Part shown: positions 6,255 through 61,701 of the stretch, one piece after another
Layout: each line of letters begins with the position of its first letter
Numbering within the stretch: position 1 is the stretch's first letter
Origin: an uncultured virus (IMG/VR IMGVR_UViG_2706794523_000001)
Lineage: Duplodnaviria; Heunggongvirae; Uroviricota; Caudoviricetes; Schitoviridae
Length of the DNA: 64,000 nucleotides
Strand: one strand, 5' to 3'
IMG/VR virus record: IMGVR_UViG_2706794523_000001
Location: 1-64,000 of that record
Translations under genes and position numbers: made by a program
The notes under the pieces: generated by a model
What the model was told of the DNA's origin: nothing
Databases searched by the model: none
The model's input: only the letters and a program-made list of their open reading frames with translations

Positions 6255-6559
6255 CAGACCTTGCTCACGTCCGTGATGTACAGATTGCCGACGCCCGTCA
6301 CGGCCATGGCCGAGAGCTTACAGCCGTCCGGAATGTCGATGTATTCGTAGACGCCGGCGGTCACCGGGAAACCGTTAGACGCTGAAACCACAGGAGTGGG
6401 GCCGACCAGAACCAGGCAATTCACATCCGCCTGGATCCTGACCACGCGATCGGCGTCGACCGGATTGACCGCCGTGTCTCCATGGCCACTCGACGCCGCC
6501 GGCGAAGTGGTGAGTGCCAGTTTCTCAGTCGCCCCGAGGCGGTAGGATGTGCTGTCCAT
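6254..6559 (-). CDS. small beta-rich protein coupled to the SGNH gene
   Basis: 101 aa, GGAG RBS, TGATG overlap with the downstream gene. Confidence 0.75.
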   Translation of the reverse strand: MDSTSYRLGATEKLALTTSPAASSGHGDTAVNPVDADRVVRIQADVNCLVLVGPTPVVSASNGFPVTAGVYEYIDIPDGCKLSAMAVTGVGNLYITDVSKV

Positions 6560-6779
6560 AGATTATCTCCATAATTAGGGGATAATCATACATCGCTTCG
6601 CTTGAAAATGCCAACGAGATAATCGCAGAAAATGCGTCACTCAACCGTGCCGTGTGTCAAGAACGTCATGCGCGAACCAATAACAATATAATCTTGTAGT
6701 AACACGGATATGTGATTGAAAAGCTTGCCTTAGTCTGATTAATCCGCCGCTTCGATTATCCCCCCGGAGCTCGCCCGAA

Positions 6780-7010
6780 ATGACAATATCCATTTTGACT
6801 AATATTCCCCCGCCTTCGGATGCCCCAATCATCATTCGCAAGAAGGCATTCAAACAATGCGCCGACTGCCCCTGGTCACCTGATGTCGCCAAGCGACTGC
6901 ACCGGAAGAAGCTTTGCGCCAACCATTTCACCATCCTCAAGGAACTACTGGACAAGGAAGCTATGAATGGACAATCCCTGGAAAGATCGGGAGTGCTTCT
7001 ACCGATATGA
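6780..7010 (+). CDS. hypothetical protein with CxxC...CxxH (possible Zn-binding)
   Basis: CADC and LCANH; GGAG upstream. Confidence 0.5.
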   Translation: MTISILTNIPPPSDAPIIIRKKAFKQCADCPWSPDVAKRLHRKKLCANHFTILKELLDKEAMNGQSLERSGVLLPI

Positions 7011-7728: not shown

Positions 7729-7889
7729 GGCGCGACAAAATGACTGCCATAATAAGAGCAGCGCTCCAGCCGGTGGCCCCCTCCCTGGCGTTCCACAGTA
7801 TCTTGGGTTAATATCTAGATAATCCTCGACTTAATCCATAAAATGGTCGAAGGGTAATTGAAGATAACCAAGGAATTGAGAAACTCAAA

Positions 7890-8204
7890 ATGACAAAGGG
7901 ATATCGTAGAAAAGCCGATGACGCCGAGATCGTGAGGCTCAACAACATCGGGCTCTCGCTCACCAGCATCGGGGAAAAGCTGGGCGTGCATCACACGACC
8001 ATCAAGTATCGACTGGACGCTCTCGGCATTGCGCCGGCAGACACCCGTCGCTCCTTCATGGAGGACATATTCGAGGCGCTGCCACTCCAGCAGCAGCAAT
8101 GGCTGATGGACCAATTGGGGCCGGGACATTCAGTCAAGGAGTTCGTCAGGTCACTTCTGATCAAGGAATTCATGGGTCGAGCGGCGTCGATCCCAGGTTC
8201 GTGA
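7890..8204 (+). CDS. HTH DNA-binding protein
   Basis: LSLTSIGEKLGVHHTTIKYRL helix-turn-helix. Confidence 0.8.
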   Translation: MTKGYRRKADDAEIVRLNNIGLSLTSIGEKLGVHHTTIKYRLDALGIAPADTRRSFMEDIFEALPLQQQQWLMDQLGPGHSVKEFVRSLLIKEFMGRAASIPGS

Positions 8205-8354
8205 TTATCAAGTGATTAACTTTTAGATTTTCGTGATTCTCGCTTGACAAAATAATCAAAATCTTAAAGGTTCGAGCATAGAACCACAGTGCATGATTCT
8301 GCTGGCCAGGGGACAGGGACAGTTGGTCGCAGATAAACCCAATAGGAGTTAACA

Positions 8355-8954
8355 ATGAGCGAACAAGCAACGAGGGAGGCGCCGACTGTCCTCACTCAAC
8401 GTTTGGTCTTCGACGACAATGAGATCCCGGCCTTCCTGAAGAAGGATCGTCCGGGTCCGAAGTCGGTTCAGATCGAGGAGCCTGCGGCGGCCCCTGCAAT
8501 CAGCGAGCCGACCAACGAGAGCATCGTAGTGGTGGATAAGACCCCTGCGGCCCAGGAAGCGCCTGCCGAGTTCGTCAAAGAGGTCCAGAACCCGATCATC
8601 GAGGCGGGAGCCGTGATGACCGGCCATGGCATCGCCGACGGAAATGGCTCGGACAATCCCGACGAACCAACGATCGAGGATCTGCAGCGTCAGCAGCAGG
8701 AGATCGATCAGAAGATCCGGGAGAAGCGCGAAGCCGAGAAGCGTTCGGTGATCGAGCAGATCGTGAGCGTGGTCAACACGTACAAGATCCCGGTCGAGGA
8801 GCTCGTCGAAGCCCTGGGCGGCATCAAGGTCAAGCGCAAGGGCGTCAAAGCCAAGCCGAAGTACAAGGACCCGGCCACCGGCCAGATCTGGTCCGGCCGC
8901 GGCAAGGAGCCTGCCTGGATCAAGGGCAAGGATCGGAAGCCCTTCGAACTCTAA
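8355..8954 (+). CDS. hns: H-NS-family protein with a long acidic N-terminal extension
   Basis: C-terminal KPKYKDPATGQIWSGRGKEPAWI H-NS DNA-binding signature preceded by a coiled coil; AGGAG RBS. Confidence 0.85.
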   Translation: MSEQATREAPTVLTQRLVFDDNEIPAFLKKDRPGPKSVQIEEPAAAPAISEPTNESIVVVDKTPAAQEAPAEFVKEVQNPIIEAGAVMTGHGIADGNGSDNPDEPTIEDLQRQQQEIDQKIREKREAEKRSVIEQIVSVVNTYKIPVEELVEALGGIKVKRKGVKAKPKYKDPATGQIWSGRGKEPAWIKGKDRKPFEL

Positions 8955-8984
8955 TAACTGCCCCGCCTACCTGGCGTATAGAGA

Positions 8985-9020
8985 GACCCCGGCAACGGTT
9001 TGTTGACCGGGGTTTTCTTT
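8985..9020 (+). terminator. rho-independent terminator
   Basis: ACCCCGGCAAC...GTTGACCGGGGT followed by TTTCTTT. Confidence 0.7.
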
Positions 9021-9061
9021 GCCTGGTTCCCACAGTCCCCAGCATAAGCAAGACTCAAACC

Positions 9062-10384
9062 ATGAGCCTAATGATTTCGCCGAGCACGGCATACAACCTC
9101 AACGACGATCAGAAGAAGGCCGGTGACGGCTTCTTTGAATTCCTCTTCAGCGATGCGAAGGAGTTCATCATCTCGGGTCCGGCCGGCGTCGGCAAGACGT
9201 ACCTGATGAACTACATCATCGACAACACGATGCCCCGCTATTTCGAAATGTGCAAGCTCATGGGCGTCAAGCCCGAGTACACCGAAGTGGTGATGACGGC
9301 GACAACCAACAAGGCGGCTGACGTGCTCTCCAAGGCCGTCAACAGGCCGACCCAGACAGCCTGCTCATTCTTCAACGTCGTCGTCCGCGATGACTTCACG
9401 ACGGGCATCTCCTCGCTGAAGCGCACCAACAAATGGAAGGTGCATCAGAAGATGATCATCTTCGTCGACGAGGCGTCGATGGTCGACACTGCCCAGTGGC
9501 AGATGTTCCATGAGGCAACCCTGGACTGCAAGCTGGTCTATGTCGGCGACAAATATCAGCTGCCGCCGGTCCAGGAGGATCTGTCGCCGATCTACAAGCA
9601 CAGCGCCCCGATCGTCGAGCTCCTGACGCCAGTCCGCAATGCCGGCCAGCCGGCTCTGATGGCGGTCTGCCAGCAGCTGCGCGAGACTGTCGCCACCGGC
9701 ATCTTCAAGCCGATCCGGCCAGTGCCTGGCGTCATCGATCACATGACCGGCCCGCAGATGCAGGCCGAGGTCGACCGGCTGTTCAAGCAGCAGACCCATG
9801 AGGCCCGTATCCTGGCGTTCACCAACAAGCGGGTGATCGAGTACAACGACCACATCCGCGCCATGCGCCACCTGCCCGTGACGTTCACGAAAGGCGAGCT
9901 CCTGGTCAACAACAGCCCGCTGCATTGCAAGAACTCGATGCTGGCGGCCGAGATGGAAGTCGAGGTTCTCAGGAACCATGGTTCGAGCCAGGTGGTCGTG
10001 GATCAGAAGCATGACGTCTACCTCGATGTCGACGTCATCGACCTGATGGACTCGCTCGGCGTCGTCTACAACAACGTGCCGTTCCCGACCAATCGCACCC
10101 ACTTCGAGGGGCTGCTCAAATACTACGGCCAGACGAAGAATTTCGAGAGGAAATATTTCCTCAAGAACAACTTCGCCGACCTGCGGCCCCGTGACGCTTC
10201 CACTGTCCACAAGTCTCAGGGTAGCACCTACGAGACAGTCTTCGTGGACATCGGTAATATCAGCACCTGCAATATTCCAAGCCTCGTGGCCCGGATGCTC
10301 TACGTCGCGTTTTCGCGAGCACGCACTCGGGTTATCCTGTTCGGAGACTTGGCTGGAAAATATGGAGGCCTCGACCTCTCGTAA
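9062..10384 (+). CDS. SF1B (Dda/RecD-like) DNA helicase (N4 gp37-like)
   Basis: GPAGVGKT, VDEASM, GDKYQLPPV, TVHKSQGST, LYVAFSRAR. Confidence 0.92.
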   Translation: MSLMISPSTAYNLNDDQKKAGDGFFEFLFSDAKEFIISGPAGVGKTYLMNYIIDNTMPRYFEMCKLMGVKPEYTEVVMTATTNKAADVLSKAVNRPTQTACSFFNVVVRDDFTTGISSLKRTNKWKVHQKMIIFVDEASMVDTAQWQMFHEATLDCKLVYVGDKYQLPPVQEDLSPIYKHSAPIVELLTPVRNAGQPALMAVCQQLRETVATGIFKPIRPVPGVIDHMTGPQMQAEVDRLFKQQTHEARILAFTNKRVIEYNDHIRAMRHLPVTFTKGELLVNNSPLHCKNSMLAAEMEVEVLRNHGSSQVVVDQKHDVYLDVDVIDLMDSLGVVYNNVPFPTNRTHFEGLLKYYGQTKNFERKYFLKNNFADLRPRDASTVHKSQGSTYETVFVDIGNISTCNIPSLVARMLYVAFSRARTRVILFGDLAGKYGGLDLS

Positions 10385-10397
10385 GAAAGGATCCCCC

Positions 10398-10901
10398 ATG
10401 GCCGGCGACAACCGACTCTTCAACACCGTCACCGCCCTCTTGAACATCCTGTTCGAGAAGGAGGAAGCCCAGATCACCAAGCGCACCAACAAGATGATCG
10501 CCAAGAACATCTCGCTCGGTGGTTCGGGTGACGGCTTCCGGCACATGGGGGAAGTCTACTCCGAGCTCTCCGGCGTCGGCCGGAGGCGCGGCAACTACTC
10601 GATGCTGAACCAGAGACTGGTCGGCGAGATGGACGCCATCCTTGCCGAGCGCAAGGCGTTCAGAAACGAGCGGGACCGCATCCGCCAGGCATTTACAATG
10701 GTGCTGCGGGACTGCCGGACGTTCCAGGACATGCGCGATGCGCTGCCCAATTGCGTCAAGGATCTGATCCCCGAATGCCGCCACCTGGAGAGAACCAGGC
10801 CCGAGGCGTTCACCTTGGCAGATAATCCGAGATCATATACACAGTATATGCAGCTGCGTGAAAAAATAGAATTTTACGTCGCCTCTCGGCTGCTTTATTA
10901 A
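10398..10901 (+). CDS. conserved N4-like protein between helicase and polymerase
   Basis: ATG 10398 after GAAAGG within ORF 10191..10901; syntenic position. Confidence 0.75.
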   Translation: MAGDNRLFNTVTALLNILFEKEEAQITKRTNKMIAKNISLGGSGDGFRHMGEVYSELSGVGRRRGNYSMLNQRLVGEMDAILAERKAFRNERDRIRQAFTMVLRDCRTFQDMRDALPNCVKDLIPECRHLERTRPEAFTLADNPRSYTQYMQLREKIEFYVASRLLY

Positions 10902-14793: not shown

Positions 14794-15780
14794 ATGCGAC
14801 TGACGAACATTCACGGCATTAGTTTGCCGTTGGCGGTCTGGCTGCTCAACGACGAATACGACTACATCAACGAGCCGAACTACATCTCGGCGACCAGCCT
14901 TCTCAAGAGCACCCGCCAGCTGGTTCTGTCCCGCAGGGTGATCCAGGAAGATCGGGAGATGGACCTGGCTGATCTGCTGGCTTCCCGTATGGGTGCCGCG
15001 ATCCATGACTCGCAGGAAAAGGCCTGGCGCCAGAACGGCCAGGCCGCGATGAAGCGCCTCGGCTACCCCGAGCAGATCTGGAGCAACATCGCCATCAACC
15101 CGACCCCGGACGAGGTCGATGCCAACCCCAACATCATCCCGGTCTGGATCGAGCAGCGCTCGTTCCGCGAGATCGACGTCGATGGCGTCATCTACAAGAT
15201 CGGCGGCAAGTTCGACCAGGTGATCTCCGGCCGGCTCTTCGATACCAAGACGACGTCGGTCTATTCCTACCTGCTGGGTCGCAAAGACAACGACTACGCC
15301 ATGCAGGGCGGCATCTATCGCTGGCTCAATCCCGAGCTGATCACCGACGCCCACATCTTCATCCAGTTCGTTTTCACCGACTGGCAGGCGGCGCGGTCCA
15401 GGGGCGACGATGGTTACCCAAAGACCAAGACCCTCGAATACCCCGTCGAAATGCCGTCGCTCGCCGACACCGAGGAATACATCCGCGGCAAGGTCAGGGA
15501 ACTGATCCGCTACGGCACCCGTCCCGATGAGGAGATCCCTCACTGCACCGACAAGGAGCTGTGGAAGGGAGAGACGGTCTACAAATACTATTCGGACCCC
15601 AGCAAAACCAGCGGCCGAGCCACTCGAAACTTCGATGGCGACAAGGCCGAGGCCCACCGCTTCATGGCGTCGAAAGGCGGCAAGGGCGTTGTCGTGGCCA
15701 TTCCCGGCGAGGTGAAGGCTTGTGGCTACTGCGCCGCCTTCAACGTCTGCAAACAGAAGGATCTCTACTTTGTCGCCTGA
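14794..15780 (+). CDS. PD-(D/E)XK exonuclease (N4 gp42-like)
   Basis: ISATSLLK, IEQR...GGKFD...LFDTKTT, C-terminal CGYCAAFNVC. Confidence 0.88.
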   Translation: MRLTNIHGISLPLAVWLLNDEYDYINEPNYISATSLLKSTRQLVLSRRVIQEDREMDLADLLASRMGAAIHDSQEKAWRQNGQAAMKRLGYPEQIWSNIAINPTPDEVDANPNIIPVWIEQRSFREIDVDGVIYKIGGKFDQVISGRLFDTKTTSVYSYLLGRKDNDYAMQGGIYRWLNPELITDAHIFIQFVFTDWQAARSRGDDGYPKTKTLEYPVEMPSLADTEEYIRGKVRELIRYGTRPDEEIPHCTDKELWKGETVYKYYSDPSKTSGRATRNFDGDKAEAHRFMASKGGKGVVVAIPGEVKACGYCAAFNVCKQKDLYFVA

Positions 15781-18008
15781 TCTCGATCTATCAACCGTCT
15801 CCCACCATCCGGCGCTGGAGGAAATTGTCGACATCCTTTGCTCGAAGACCCAGAACACCGATCGGGGCTTCTTCCGCACTGAGGTCGCATACTTCTTCGC
15901 CAAGATGGCAGCGACCATGCGAGCCACGATCCAGACCAAGGACCGCGGCGAAATGCCGGTGAACATCTATGCCCTGGCTCTGGCGACGTCCGGCTACGGC
16001 AAGGGTCACTCGGTCAACATCATGGAGGAGGAATTCCTCGCCGGGTTCAAGCAGCGCTTCATGCAGGACACCTTCCCGGTGATCGCCGAGCAAGGCCTGT
16101 GGGACATCGCCAATGGCAACGCTGCCCGCAACGGCACCGACCAGCAGGAGGAGTTCGACAAGGTCTCCAAGGAGTTCCGCAAATACGGCGCCTATCCGTT
16201 TACCTTCGACTCCGGCACGGCACCGGCGGTCAAGCAGCTGCGCCAGAAACTGCTCATGGCCTTGTGCGGCAGCGTCAACCTGCAGATCGACGAGATCGGA
16301 TCCAATCTGATCAAGGAGACTGAGCTGCTGACCCTGTTCCTGGAGCTTTACGACCAGGGCCTGGTCAAGCAGAAGCTGATCAAGAACACCACCGACCAGG
16401 AGCGGGCCGAAGAGCGGGAAGGCAAGACGCCGACCAACATGCTGCTGTTCGGCACACCGGCCAAGCTGTTCGATGGCTCGGCCACCGAGGATGAGTTCTA
16501 CTCATTTCTCGAGACCGGTTATGCGCGGCGCTGCATCTTTGGCTACGGCGTCCACAACAACCGCTCGAACCAGAACCAGACGGCTGAGGAGATCTTCGTC
16601 TCCCTCACCCAGCCGAAGAATGAGGTCCTGGTCGAAAAGTGGCAGCGCCATTTCTACACGCTGGCGGATCCTGCGATCCACGGCTGGAAGATGGAAGTCC
16701 CGGACTCTGTCTCGATCGCTCTGCTGGCCTATCGCCTGGAGTGCGAGAAGGCAGCCGACAGGATGTCCGACCACGAGGAGATCAAGAAGGCCGAGCTGAA
16801 CCACCGCTACTCCAAGGCCATCAAGCTNAGCCGACAGGATGTCCGACCACGAGGAGATCAAGAAGGCCGAGCTGAACCACCGCTACTCCAAGGCCATCAA
16901 GCTGGCCGGCGCCTATGCCTTCATCGACGGATCCACCGAGGTCCTGATGGAGCACCTGAACGCCGCCATCAAGCTGGTCGAGGAGTCGGGTGCGGCATTC
17001 CAGACGATCCTCAGCCGCGAGAAGACCTACGTGAAGCTGGCGAAGTACATCTCCAGCATCGGCACGGAAGTGACCCACGCCGATCTGCTGGAGGCCCTGC
17101 CCTTCTACAAGTCCAGCAAGCAGGCCCGTGACGAGATGATGACCCTGGCGACAGCCTGGGGCTACAAGAAGCACATCATCATCAAGAAGGAGTTTGCCGA
17201 CGGCATCGAGCTCTTCAAGGGCGAGACGCTGCAGGAGACCGATATCGAAAAGATCATCGTCTCCTACTCGAACCATTGGGCATACAGCTACCTGCCCGAG
17301 GAAGTCCCGTTCGACAAACTCTTCATGCTGACCCAGATGCCGGAATACCACTGGGCAAATCACCACTTCAAGGGCGGTCACCGCGCCGAGGAGAACGTGC
17401 TCGCCGGCTTCAACATGATCGCCATCGACGTGGACGGCGGAACGACCCTGCAGGCGGCTCACGAGCTGCTGAAGGATTACAAGTTCCTGACCTACACGAC
17501 GAAGCGTCACACCGAGGAAGAGAACCGGTTCCGGCTCATCATGCCGACCAACTACCGGCTCGACCTCGATAGCGACGAATACAAGGAGTTCATGAACAAC
17601 GTCATGTCCTGGCTGCCGTTCGCGACCGACGAGTCGGCCAACCAGCGATCCAAGAAGTGGGAAAGCTTCGCAGACGGCGCCTACCACTACAACCTGGAGG
17701 GCGAGATCCTCGACGTTCTGCCGTTCATTCCGAAGACCAGCCGGAACGAGGCCTACAAGCAGAGCAACAAGGACCTTGGCTCGCTCGACAACCTGGAGCG
17801 CTGGTTCGCTACCAGGATCGCCAGCGGCAACCGCAACAACCAGATGATCAAGTACGCACTTTGCTTGGTCGATGCCGGTTGGGATCTGCCGACGGTGCGG
17901 GACGGGGTCAAGTCGTTCAACAAGAAGCTGCGCGACAGCCTGACCGAAGCGGAGCTCGACAGCACCATCATGGTGACCGTCGCCAAGCGATACCAGCAGA
18001 CGGCCTGA
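15770..18008 (+). CDS. DNA primase (N4 gp43-like); apparent frameshift caused by a scaffold artefact at N16828
   Basis: TTG start after AGAAGG; SGYGKG, QIDEIG, AIDVDG, C-terminal GNRNNQM. Removing the 75-bp duplicate plus the N gives a 2163-nt in-frame ORF. Confidence 0.88.
16753..16903. repeat. 75-bp exact tandem duplication around a single N (likely assembly artefact)
   Basis: 16753-16827 equals 16829-16903. Confidence 0.9.
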
Positions 18009-58167: not shown

Positions 58168-58676
58168 GAAAACGATAGACATCTTTCAGATTGATCGAGG
58201 GTGGGGCTTTACAGGCCCCCTTCCCTTTGTTAAAGAGCGTGCTCTTTACCACCGCCCCACGGCCTACCTCTGCATCTCCCCCCTACTGTTTTCTTTAGAA
58301 AGAAAATAAGAAAGAGAGAGATACGGACGGGCGAAGCTATATGTGGGTGACCCCACTGGGACCTGGGGGACTCTGGTTCATTAAAGAGATAATCATTACC
58401 ACAATGATTTGAAAACCATTAAGGTAAATCCTCGCGCTATTTTTAAGGGGATTTAATAGATAATGATTAGCCTGTTTTCTCTGGCTCATTATCTTGGTTC
58501 CGATTTTGGCGATTATGCCGCCCATTATGCAGATAATATTATCTAGATTTTTGCAGTAGCCATTTTATCATAATGACGTTCTGGTGCTGTACATACACCG
58601 GGGGTGACCCTGTCAGATTTAAATACCCCCCCGGTCTAACACCCTCACACCCATACTCACCACCCCCTGTGTTCAT

Positions 58677-60739: not shown

Positions 60740-61254
60740 CGGCAACCAGTAACCCAACCCGTGGGTTGAACAGCATCTAAGCACCTGATCAATGCCGCGA
60801 TGAACGAGATGCGATGCTCATTTAACTGCTCGCACAGGAGTCGTCGGGGTACGATCAGCTGCCAACGCAGGAGACTGCAACCATGGACGATTAGATCAGC
60901 CTGCCCGGAGCCATAGGCTCTTGGCAGGTAGGCTACCCAGCTTTTCATGCCCCAATGTGGGTATTCATAGCGCCCTCATATCGACCGCTCATTCGGGCAC
61001 ATCTGGCGCACCGATTATCAACTAAATCATCTGATTGGCGTTCCAATCGACCGCGGCGACAATATCGATTCAGTTCGATCGCACCGCGCTAGAGCGTGTC
61101 TGCCATAATACCTCTCGCTGAATGCGGGTCCTGCCCATTGGACCTTAACTATGGCAGCCCCAGAGGCTCTAACCGTGCGAGTAAGCTGCAGCGTGAGTGC
61201 AGCACCTTGAGGAGGCGTTCCCGTGTGAAAGGGGGCGTCTCCTCCTTTTATTTT
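60740..61254 (+). ncRNA. candidate large structured ncRNA
   Basis: No credible ORF; at least 9 helices read by eye; ends in a strong terminator. Confidence 0.45.
61209..61254 (+). terminator. rho-independent terminator
   Basis: GAGGAGGCGTTCCC...GGGGGCGTCTCCTC followed by CTTTTATTTT. Confidence 0.8.
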
Positions 61255-61407
61255 CAAAAGGGATAGACAGGCATTATCTTTAAAAATAATGAGGAATATG
61301 CCTGTGGATAAGTCGGAGAATTTCGACTCGATTCCTACTTCCTGATTAACTTACTAAATGCTAATCCGACTTTTCTCCAAAAATCGGCGATAAGGAGCCT
61401 AAAATCC

Positions 61408-61701
61408 ATGGGTGCGAATTTCAAAACTCAATCCTTCGACGGCAAGCTGTCCAAGAAGGAACTCGAAACGGCCTTTGAGCGTGTCCAGGACCAGGATCGC
61501 TACGAGAATGGGCACAGCTATTCCGGCGGCTTCGGCATGGCCCGTGGTCTGCAGATCGCGGACAAAACCTTCCGCGACAGGGAGATCGCTGAAGAGTACC
61601 TCGATAGCAATTGCGAGAAGTGGGAAGAGGCGATCGCCGTCGTCTACACCGACAAGGATGGAGCCAAGAAGTGGCTCATCGGCGCAGTGTGCGCGAGCTG
61701 A
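61408..61701 (+). CDS. hypothetical phage protein
   Basis: 97 aa, TAAGGAG RBS, YENGHSYSG motif. Confidence 0.8.
   Translation: MGANFKTQSFDGKLSKKELETAFERVQDQDRYENGHSYSGGFGMARGLQIADKTFRDREIAEEYLDSNCEKWEEAIAVVYTDKDGAKKWLIGAVCAS

What the first reader, a model, noticed from the sequence alone, without database searches (positions are those of the whole stretch)
8355..8954. Phage H-NS with an FtsZ C-terminal-peptide mimic on a disordered arm
Seen: residues 19-30 (8409-8444) read FDDNEIPAFLKK, followed by about 75 aa of acidic Pro/Ala/Glu-rich linker, a coiled coil and the H-NS DNA-binding motif. Established: the conserved FtsZ tail is (D/E)IPAFLR(K/R), sits on a disordered linker and binds FtsA and other regulators; H-NS oligomerises on AT-rich DNA. 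Inference: H-NS filaments would display many FtsZ-tail mimics on DNA, titrating divisome anchors (division block) or tethering phage DNA to the membrane or septum, and might also silence AT-rich defence islands. A weaker alternative is similarity to the SSB tail (FDDDIPF), but that motif needs a free C-terminus.
Basis: partly seen in the sequence, partly recalled or inferred. Interest (0 to 1): 0.85.

Follow-up and report, generated by a model that had tools for sequence, protein, structure and literature searches.

The report
Phage H-NS with FtsZ-tail-like arm
An N4-like phage of a Mesorhizobium-type host makes an H-NS-type DNA-coating protein whose floppy front arm carries a conserved copy of the short peptide that the cell-division protein FtsZ uses to dock on its partners, so it may link or jam host division, though no binding has been tested.

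Summary
ORF 8355-8954 (+) is a real 199-aa gene with a good ribosome site. It encodes an H-NS family protein (Pfam PF00816, E 2.7e-10). Residues 1-105 are predicted disordered and residues 23-30 read EIPAFLKK.

A Mesorhizobium genome that carries a syntenic prophage has an FtsZ ending ...LEIPAFLRRQAN. In 23 of 28 FtsZ tails of that bacterial order the core is [DE]IP[AT]FLRR.

The phage motif is conserved in 49 relatives, all inside one clade of 100. Residues that my search pattern did not fix (acidic before, basic after) also match the FtsZ tail. In the 7.7-Mb host genome the pattern hits four places: FtsZ, two mobile-element proteins and one spurious frame.

A second motif, T-x-R-L-x-F-G/D at residues 14-20, is far more widespread (157 of 194 arm-bearing relatives).

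Division block, membrane tethering and silencing remain inference.

Verdict: a real, conserved short motif that very probably copies the FtsZ tail, with unproven function. New variant of a known kind.

The parts
8205..8354 (+). AT-rich intergenic region upstream of the gene; promoter not identified
   Evidence: GC is 0.445 in the 200-bp windows 8100-8299 and 8200-8399, against 0.59 overall. The sigma-70 consensus scan found no site here.
8344..8348 (+). Shine-Dalgarno AGGAG, 6 nt before the ATG
   Evidence: Read directly.
8355..8954 (+). CDS, 199 aa: H-NS family protein with an N-terminal disordered arm
8394..8414 (+). Motif 1, residues 14-20 (TQRLVFD); family-wide T-x-R-L-x-F-[G/D]; partner unknown
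   Evidence: T14, R16, F19 and D20 are at 90% or more in A1. A motif-1-like string is present in 157 of 194 arm-bearing relatives. It is also present in OLIVR1 gp69 and ZX86 gp53.
8421..8444 (+). Motif 2, residues 23-30 (EIPAFLKK); FtsZ C-terminal-peptide-like
   Evidence: Host-type FtsZ tail ...LEIPAFLRRQAN. Logo of 43 distinct contexts. pLDDT bump with helical turns at 21-23 and 26-28.
8445..8669 (+). Acidic Ala/Pro/Glu-rich disordered linker, residues 31-105
   Evidence: Net charge -10. Block pLDDT 46-60. Length and sequence vary among relatives.
8673..8813 (+). Predicted helical oligomerisation region, residues 107-153
   Evidence: AF2 helices 107-143 and 147-153 with block pLDDT 86-94. 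PHROG 10171 covers 107-198.
8820..8951 (+). Basic linker and H-NS DNA-binding domain, residues 156-199 (core W-S-G-R-G-K-E-P)
   Evidence: Pfam PF00816 covers 168-198. PDB 2l92_A. Net charge +10. G181, R182, G183, K184, E185, P186 and W188 are invariant in A1.
8987..9020 (+). Terminator-like hairpin with a T-run after the stop codon
   Evidence: One search reports its inner stem at 8996-9009 followed by GGGTTTTCTT. The outer CCCCGG/CCGGGG pairing was read.
7890..8204 (+). Upstream neighbour: small HTH protein (phrog_6377), syntenic in relatives
9062..10384 (+). Downstream neighbour: Dda-like SF1 helicase, syntenic in relatives
   Evidence: phrog_325, E 2.9e-114. Synteny shown.

Best explanation
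Shown. This is a replication-module gene of an N4-like phage. It encodes a minimal H-NS-type nucleoid protein (helical oligomerisation region plus basic DNA-binding domain, about 95 aa). In front of that sits a roughly 105-aa disordered, acidic arm. The arm carries two conserved short linear motifs. Motif 2, [DE]-x-[DE]-[IV]-P-x-F-L-[RK]-[KR], copies the conserved C-terminal peptide of the host-order FtsZ.

Inferred. The H-NS core coats DNA and oligomerises, so many arms are displayed side by side. This is the same polymer-linker-peptide design as FtsZ filaments, in inverted order. The displayed peptides dock in the pocket that FtsZ-tail receptors offer: FtsA, and possibly the FzlC homologue, MinC or ClpX. 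Avidity would make up for the weak affinity of a single peptide.

The likely outcome is competition with FtsZ for its membrane anchors, which would delay or block division during infection. An alternative outcome is attachment of coated DNA to the membrane or the division site.

Motif 1 (T-x-R-L-x-F-G/D) binds a second partner that is not yet identified.
For: Family. Pfam PF00816 E 2.7e-10. PHROG 10171 covers only residues 107-198. PDB 2l92_A E 3.7e-10.

Disorder. AF2 block pLDDT is 46-71 for residues 1-100. Linker charge is -10 and DNA-binding-domain charge is +10.

Identity to the host tail. The FtsZ of a Mesorhizobium genome with a syntenic prophage ends ...DDQLEIPAFLRRQAN. 23 of 28 complete FtsZ tails of that order have [DE]IP[AT]FLRR.

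Conservation pattern. In 43 distinct motif contexts the positions that my pattern did not fix agree with the FtsZ tail: position -1 is D/E in 32 of 43, -3 is D/E in 32 of 43, +5 is R/K in 38 of 43, and +6 is K/R in 34 of 43. L was 43 of 43 although I and M were also allowed. The x position varies (A 16, Q 14, L 6).

Specificity. The back-translated pattern hits four places in the 7.7-Mb host genome and none with the reversed control: FtsZ, the prophage copy of this gene, a phage-associated protein that ends in the motif, and one antisense frame. Over 41 genomes there were 72 hits against 34 for the control. By my reading, 31 of the 72 are at FtsZ.

Synteny. The order HTH - this gene - Dda helicase - p236 holds in all 13 arm-bearing viral loci (one, L090, starts at its contig end and so lacks the HTH gene), and also in L002, OLIVR1 and ZX86.

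Literature. The FtsZ tail binds FtsA in this bacterial order, and an FzlC homologue exists in Agrobacterium (10.1101/412759, passages read).
Against: No binding test of any kind was made.

The motif is internal and N-proximal, whereas FtsZ's lies 2-4 residues from a free C-terminus.

Only 49 of 100 rows in the clade carry it, with at least 14 gains or losses on a poorly resolved tree. The cultured relatives on Agrobacterium and Ochrobactrum, and the large marine groups, lack it although their hosts have the same FtsZ tail. It is therefore dispensable for the protein's core job.

Non-FtsZ hits of the pattern over 41 genomes (41) are near the control level (34). The pattern alone is weak evidence outside a conserved context.

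Oligomerisation and DNA preference are inferred from family membership only.
Confidence: 0.5

Rival explanations
1. Motif 2 is a docking peptide for some other partner, either a phage replication protein such as the adjacent Dda-like helicase or DNA polymerase, or an unrelated host protein. Its likeness to the FtsZ tail is convergent or coincidental. The arm would then work like the acidic tails of SSB-type hub proteins: it recruits partners and folds back on its own basic DNA-binding domain to tune DNA binding.
For: The gene always sits in the replication module next to the helicase and polymerase. The arm is acidic (-10) and the DNA-binding part is basic (+10). Motif 2 is optional within the family, while the arm and motif 1 are general. 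An 8-residue match can arise by chance somewhere in a scan of this size (inference).
Against: The conserved positions, including the acidic lead-in and basic trail that my pattern did not fix, are those of the FtsZ tail. In the host genome the motif otherwise marks FtsZ. No phage partner was identified.
Confidence: 0.25
2. The N-terminal motifs are degradation or turnover signals. Motif 1 resembles, from recall only, the class of N-terminal ClpX recognition signals of the form polar-T-hydrophobic-basic-hydrophobic. The FtsZ tail region is also a ClpX contact in E. coli (recalled). The arm would then time the protein's lifetime during infection or lysogeny.
For: Motif 1 (T-x-R/K-L-x-F) lies close to the N-terminus in 157 of 194 arm-bearing relatives from phages of diverse hosts. 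That distribution fits a universally conserved host factor. The record carries an integrase at its end, so timing between lysogeny and lytic growth matters.
Against: The motif starts at residue 9-20, not at residue 2-3 as in the recalled examples. The resemblance comes from memory and was not tested. It does not explain why motif 2 copies the acidic and basic flanks of the FtsZ tail.
Confidence: 0.1
3. Motif 1 or the whole N-terminus is a sliding-clamp-binding peptide (consensus Q-L-[SD]-L-F, recalled). It would tether the DNA-coating protein to host DnaN at replication forks. Motif 2 would be secondary.
For: Many relatives read ...T-[KQR]-S-L-F-[GA]. The window protein reads Q-R-L-V-F. The gene lies in the replication module.
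Against: The Q is not conserved: position -4 is mostly T, A or P. The register differs from the recalled consensus. Not tested.
Confidence: 0.1

Closest known systems
H-NS family proteins encoded by phages (EPV1 H-NS, Skennerton et al. 2011, PMC3097231; Agrobacterium phage OLIVR1 gp69 'H-NS histone family protein', MT234338.1)
   Same: C-terminal H-NS DNA-binding domain plus a helical oligomerisation region. OLIVR1 gp69 and Ochrobactrum phage ZX86 gp53 share the N4-like genome, the position upstream of the Dda-like helicase, the acidic N-terminal arm and motif 1.
   Different: EPV1 H-NS was described as a host-derived full-length H-NS proposed to silence defence genes (abstract and passages read); no arm is mentioned there. 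OLIVR1 and ZX86 lack motif 2. None has a reported function for the arm.
FtsZ conserved C-terminal peptide with its disordered C-terminal linker
   Same: The same core, [DE]-I-P-x-F-L-R/K-R/K, with an acidic lead-in, on a long disordered linker attached to a self-associating module. A short helical tendency is predicted.
   Different: It sits near the N-terminus and is followed by the linker, not at a free C-terminal end. The carrier is a DNA-binding H-NS core, not a tubulin-like GTPase. Binding to FtsA or other receptors is untested here.
SlmA and Noc nucleoid-occlusion factors (recalled; SlmA paper PMC4117426 seen only as a search listing)
   Same: DNA-bound proteins that act on the FtsZ tail/anchor interface or link DNA to the membrane.
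   Different: SlmA binds the FtsZ tail, whereas this protein would imitate the tail. There is no sequence relationship. The comparison is an analogy of logic only.
Known phage and prophage division inhibitors (lambda Kil, T7 gp0.4, DicB; recalled)
   Same: Phage proteins that interfere with Z-ring function.
   Different: Those are small proteins that act on the FtsZ core or through MinC/ZipA. None is an H-NS protein or a tail mimic as far as I recall. My searches listed none.
SSB C-terminal tail
   Same: An acidic disordered arm with a short hydrophobic docking motif on a DNA-coating protein. The window reads F-D-D-N-E-I-P-A-F.
   Different: There is no free C-terminal Phe. In relatives the F-D and I-P-x-F parts are separated by 0 to about 30 residues, so the contiguous SSB-like string is not conserved.

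Membership tests
H-NS family (Pfam PF00816 Histone_HNS) | C-terminal DNA-binding domain with the W-[ST]-G-[RQ]-G-[RK]-x-P core | tested here: met
   PF00816 scores 40.3 bits against a cut-off of 25.6, residues 168-198. W179-S-G-R-G-K-E-P186 is invariant or nearly so in 45 sequences. PDB 2l92_A E 3.7e-10.
H-NS family (Pfam PF00816 Histone_HNS) | Helical N-terminal dimerisation/oligomerisation region joined to the DNA-binding domain by a basic linker | tested here: met
   AF2 helices 107-143 and 147-153 with block pLDDT 86-94. A basic K-rich stretch at 156-170. This is predicted structure only.
H-NS family (Pfam PF00816 Histone_HNS) | Forms higher-order oligomers on AT-rich DNA and silences transcription | not testable with these tools
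   No assay was possible. AT-rich islands exist in the phage (17 stretches under 45% GC), but no binding is shown.
FtsZ C-terminal peptide (mimic of) | Core sequence [DE]-[IV]-P-x-F-L-[RK]-[RK] with an acidic lead-in | tested here: met
   The window reads D-D-N-E-I-P-A-F-L-K-K. The host-type FtsZ reads D-D-Q-L-E-I-P-A-F-L-R-R. 23 of 28 FtsZ tails of the order carry the core. Logo of 43 contexts.
FtsZ C-terminal peptide (mimic of) | Carried on an intrinsically disordered linker attached to a self-associating module | tested here: met
   Self-association is inferred from family membership.
FtsZ C-terminal peptide (mimic of) | Lies at the extreme C-terminus (2-4 residues from the free end) | tested here: not met
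   The motif is at residues 23-30 of 199 and is followed by the linker.
FtsZ C-terminal peptide (mimic of) | Binds FtsA, ZipA, FzlC, MinC or other tail receptors | not testable with these tools
   No complex prediction was available for this window. No bench data.
SSB C-terminal tail | Acidic tail ending in a free C-terminal I-P-F | tested here: not met
   The motif is N-proximal and internal. The spacer between F-D and I-P-x-F varies from 0 to about 30 residues in relatives.
Sliding-clamp-binding motif (for motif 1; consensus recalled) | Q at position 1 and L-F at positions 4-5 of a pentapeptide | tested here: inconclusive
   F is present by construction of the logo. Position -2 is L in 111 of 157. 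The position that would hold Q is mostly T, A or P.
N4-like phages (Schitoviridae-type) | Giant virion RNA polymerase, two-subunit RNAPII, N4-type SSB, portal, capsid and terminase | tested here: met
   phrog_2206 (3496 aa, 2366.8 bits), phrog_743, phrog_1216, phrog_1357 and phrog_38. phrog_2166 and phrog_2051 in the remainder of the record.

The most novel reading that the evidence does not exclude
A DNA-coating, oligomerising phage nucleoid protein displays arrays of FtsZ-tail decoys. These capture the host's Z-ring membrane anchors (FtsA, FzlC) on DNA, giving a virus-made, inverted form of nucleoid occlusion that blocks division or pins phage DNA to the membrane. It would be one instance of a wider, unpublished habit of mobile elements of bolting FtsZ-tail peptides onto unrelated proteins. 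In the same host genome a capsid-adjacent protein ends in the peptide, and earlier notes of this scan report others.
Probability: 0.3. Interest if true: 0.85.

Novelty: new variant of a known kind. Interest (0 to 1): 0.62.

Why it matters
Phage H-NS proteins are known only as presumed gene silencers. A conserved arm that copies the FtsZ docking peptide would tie a nucleoid protein to the division machinery.

It would also give a natural, multivalent competitor of the FtsZ/anchor interface. That interface is a drug-target site, and its biology in polar-growing Alphaproteobacteria is still open.

The idea is directly testable with a four-residue mutant.

The wider family (arm plus motif 1, conserved in N4-like phages of Alphaproteobacteria) points to a second, unknown docking site that is probably more fundamental to these phages.

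Tried and rejected
No verdict exists, and I tried no substitute.
- megablast of 7800-10400 against the phage collection found no match.
- The ESM Atlas look-up of residues 1-45 gave no usable feature hit, and the structural neighbours are meaningless for a disordered peptide.
- Sequencing runs: no RNA holder was listed.
- The sigma-70 scan found no promoter directly upstream of the gene.
- SSB-tail reading: rejected, because there is no free C-terminus and the spacer is variable.
- I tested whether the capsid-adjacent 135-aa protein of the host genome (L054) belongs to a family with a conserved FtsZ-like tail. It does not. Only 1 of 120 listed relatives (P0255) shares the tail, so it is a recent add-on.
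- I surveyed non-FtsZ pattern hits in 41 genomes. Of 22 places examined, 15 lie in short frames or under a longer ORF, 3 are ambiguous and 4 are in real ORFs (L054, L141, L110, L136). L136 is inside what looks like a folded domain. L141 has no Pfam family.
- Literature searches listed no report of an H-NS protein with an FtsZ-like peptide, or of a temperate N4-like phage. I saw listings only for most of these papers, so this is 'not found in these searches', not 'not in print'.

Full report
**What is there**

The ORF 8355..8954 on the + strand encodes 199 residues. AGGAG lies at 8344-8348, 6 nt before the ATG. A hairpin with a T-run follows the stop codon at 8987-9020. The 150 bp upstream are AT-rich, with GC about 0.445 against 0.59 overall.

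Pfam finds the H-NS C-terminal domain at residues 168-198 (E 2.7e-10, above the curated cut-off). PHROG 10171, a phage family of unknown function, covers only residues 107-198. A profile of 45 relatives hits the solved H-NS C-terminal domain 2l92_A (E 3.7e-10).

AlphaFold2 on that alignment (mean pLDDT 68.9, pTM 0.29) gives these regions:
- Residues 1-100: block-mean pLDDT 46-71, no regular structure except two helical turns at 21-23 and 26-28.
- Residues 107-143 and 147-153: confident helices.
- C-terminal domain: block pLDDT 72-86.

The linker 31-105 has net charge -10 and is rich in A, P and E. Residues 156-199 have net charge +10.

**Genomic setting**

The window is part of a 73,302-bp virus record labelled provirus and 99% complete. 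It is an N4-like phage. It has a 3496-aa virion RNA polymerase (phrog_2206), portal, major head protein, large terminase, DNA polymerase, primase, N4-type SSB and a Dda-like helicase. The two RNAPII subunits lie in the 9.3 kb beyond the window.

The gene sits in the replication module, between a small HTH protein (7890-8204) and the helicase (9062-10384). The same order, HTH - H-NS-arm - helicase - p236 homologue, is found in every arm-bearing relative I examined:
- all 13 arm-bearing viral loci, of 19 loci fetched from IMG/VR (one, L090, starts at its contig end and so lacks the HTH gene);
- a block inside a 727-kb Mesorhizobium yinganensis contig (L002);
- Agrobacterium phage OLIVR1;
- Ochrobactrum phage ZX86.

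The other 6 viral loci hold distant H-NS relatives in other contexts.

**Is the motif more than chance?**

The word-index search found 228 relatives at E <= 0.001 among 422 candidates, of which 120 were listed. The exhaustive search found 1824, of which 150 were listed.

Among the 253 proteins then held, [IVL]P.F[LIM] occurs in 49, always at residues 8-52. The stricter [DEN][IV]P.FL[RKT][RKN] occurs in 31.

I took the 43 distinct contexts of the loose pattern and looked at the positions the pattern did not fix:

| Position | Residue | Count of 43 |
|---|---|---|
| -3 | D/E | 32 |
| -1 | D/E | 32 |
| +5 | R/K | 38 |
| +6 | K/R | 34 |
| L position | L (I and M were also allowed) | 43 |
| x position | free (A 16, Q 14, L 6) | - |

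On a FastTree of the 97-column core, I kept 240 of the 254 proteins held at that point. I dropped 14 that lack the W-x-G-x-G core or have under 70 residues before it. All 49 motif-bearers fall inside one clade of 100 rows (local support 94). At least 14 changes of state are needed on this poorly resolved tree.

The motif is therefore a conserved short linear motif of one subclade. It is not a family-wide feature.

**Is it like the host's FtsZ tail?**

The Mesorhizobium genome that holds the syntenic block (G001) has an FtsZ ending ...HEDDQLEIPAFLRRQAN. I fetched 30 FtsZ loci of that order. 29 gave an FtsZ frame and 28 of those frames were complete. 23 of the 28 have [DE]IP[AT]FLRR, and one more has IPAFLRR after a duplicated IP. 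The window reads FDDNEIPAFLKKDRP.

The back-translated pattern GANRTNCCNNNNTTYYTNMRNMRN hits four places in the 7.7-Mb G001 and none with the reversed control:
- FtsZ.
- The prophage copy of this gene (EIPNFLRK).
- The antisense frame of an 890-aa gene, which is spurious.
- A 135-aa protein that ends ...ADIPAFLKNGQ and sits beside a phage capsid gene.

Over 41 genomes of the order there are 72 hits against 34 for the control. By my comparison with the FtsZ coordinates, plus L142, 31 of the 72 are the FtsZ tail. The remaining 41 are about what chance gives.

I examined 22 of those 41:
- 15 lie in short frames or under a longer ORF.
- 3 are ambiguous.
- 4 are in real ORFs.

In these hosts, then, the motif essentially marks FtsZ. 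The rare genuine extras seen in G001 are on mobile-element proteins.

In the phage's own 73-kb record, a looser pattern hits only this gene and one antisense site.

Residues 14-20 (TQRLVFD) belong to a second motif, T-x-R-L-x-F-[G/D], that is much more widespread. A heuristic finds it in 157 of 194 arm-bearing relatives. Counts at the key positions are T 133, R 129 and L 111 of 157, and the residue after F is G in 72 and D in 47.

The 194 include the large marine groups with 150-220-residue acidic linkers. Separately, OLIVR1 gp69 and ZX86 gp53 have motif 1 and the acidic arm but no motif 2.

The general design of the family is therefore: N-terminal motif 1, then a variable acidic linker, then a minimal H-NS core. 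Motif 2 is an insert in one subclade, placed 0 to about 30 residues after motif 1.

I could not assign motif 1. From recall it resembles both a clamp-binding peptide and an N-terminal ClpX signal. Neither resemblance was tested.

**Mechanism**

Shown: family membership, disorder, conservation of the two motifs, near-identity of motif 2 to the host-order FtsZ tail, and the replication-module position.

Inferred: that the core oligomerises on DNA, that the arm is exposed, that motif 2 occupies the FtsZ-tail pocket of FtsA or another receptor, and that this competes with FtsZ or tethers DNA.

The inference is reasonable for three reasons:
- The FtsZ tail is the known docking peptide for FtsA in this order, and an FzlC homologue exists there (10.1101/412759, passages read).
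- Within the host genome, nothing else in a real chromosomal gene carries the motif.
- Polymer - linker - peptide is exactly how FtsZ achieves avidity (established knowledge, recalled).

Against it:
- The motif is not at a free end.
- It is dispensable in many relatives whose hosts have the same tail.
- No binding test could be run.

I put the FtsZ-tail-receptor reading at about 0.5.

**Comparison with what is known**

Phage H-NS genes have been reported (EPV1, PMC3097231; abstract and passages read) and annotated (OLIVR1 gp69). They are interpreted as silencers. My searches listed no paper that describes an arm or an FtsZ-like peptide on them (mostly listings only).

Earlier AI notes of this scan report the same kind of protein in another soil N4-like phage (e1-5347205). 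They also report FtsZ-tail-like peptides on other mobile-element proteins (e1-6103855, e1-5363348, e1-7765779). I treat these as leads. My own check of one further case gave mixed results. The L054 protein does end in the peptide, but only 1 of 120 listed relatives shares it.

PMC13370423, named in one of those notes, was seen as outline and abstract only. Its abstract does not mention FtsZ.

**Verdict**

- Observation: confirmed.
- Interpretation: partly supported. The H-NS assignment and the sequence mimicry hold. The function is untested.
- Novelty: a new variant of a known kind.
- Interest: moderate to high, because a four-residue mutant would test it directly.

Noticed in passing
L105:8175-9302 (= record 72175-73302, beyond the window); L002: A tyrosine integrase (phrog_1, E 1.3e-35) runs off the end of this N4-like record, which IMG/VR labels a provirus. 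A syntenic N4-like block lies inside a 727-kb Mesorhizobium contig. This looks like a temperate, integrated phage that carries a virion RNA polymerase. My one literature search listed no such report.
   Followed up: partly
window 8394-8414 and relatives: Motif 1 (T-x-R-L-x-F-G/D) near the N-terminus is conserved in 157 of 194 arm-bearing H-NS relatives. OLIVR1 gp69 and ZX86 gp53 carry it too. It is more general than the FtsZ-like motif, and its partner is unknown.
   Followed up: partly
L054:1126-1530 (Mesorhizobium yinganensis genome G001, contig C34): A 135-aa protein with no Pfam family, next to a phage capsid gene, ends in ...ADIPAFLKNGQ. Only 1 of 120 listed relatives (P0255, 73% identical) has a similar tail, so the tail is a recent add-on.
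   Followed up: yes
L141:1332-3000 (genome G032, contig C1): An ORF of at least 556 aa with no Pfam family carries ...DDGPEEIPGFLRR... at about residue 72, in a low-complexity N-terminal stretch. It may be another FtsZ-tail-like motif on a non-FtsZ protein.
   Followed up: partly
window 15722-17131 and 16839-18008 (+): Two overlapping ORFs in different frames match the N-terminal (positions 3-348) and C-terminal (328-712) halves of the same primase family, phrog_2135. This could be a split gene, a frameshift or a sequencing error.
   Followed up: no
window, 17 places (e.g. 6551-6825, 7751-7950, 8126-8375, 58276-58650, 61201-61475): There are short AT-rich islands (under 45% GC in 150 bp) in a 59% GC genome. 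Several (e.g. 8126-8375) lie where no long ORF was listed. They are candidate targets of the phage's own H-NS protein.
   Followed up: no
P0002, P0003 (database records of near-identical proteins): Gene callers started these records at the TTG equivalent to residue 17. That cuts off the conserved residues 1-16 and half of motif 1, so database copies of this family may often be N-terminally truncated.
   Followed up: yes
G006:C1:984227-984249 and L060: In one small (1.4-Mb) genome of the order, the FtsZ-tail motif (reading EIPSFLKK) is internal. The frame runs on to a different basic end, so a free C-terminal position is not universal even in FtsZ.
   Followed up: no
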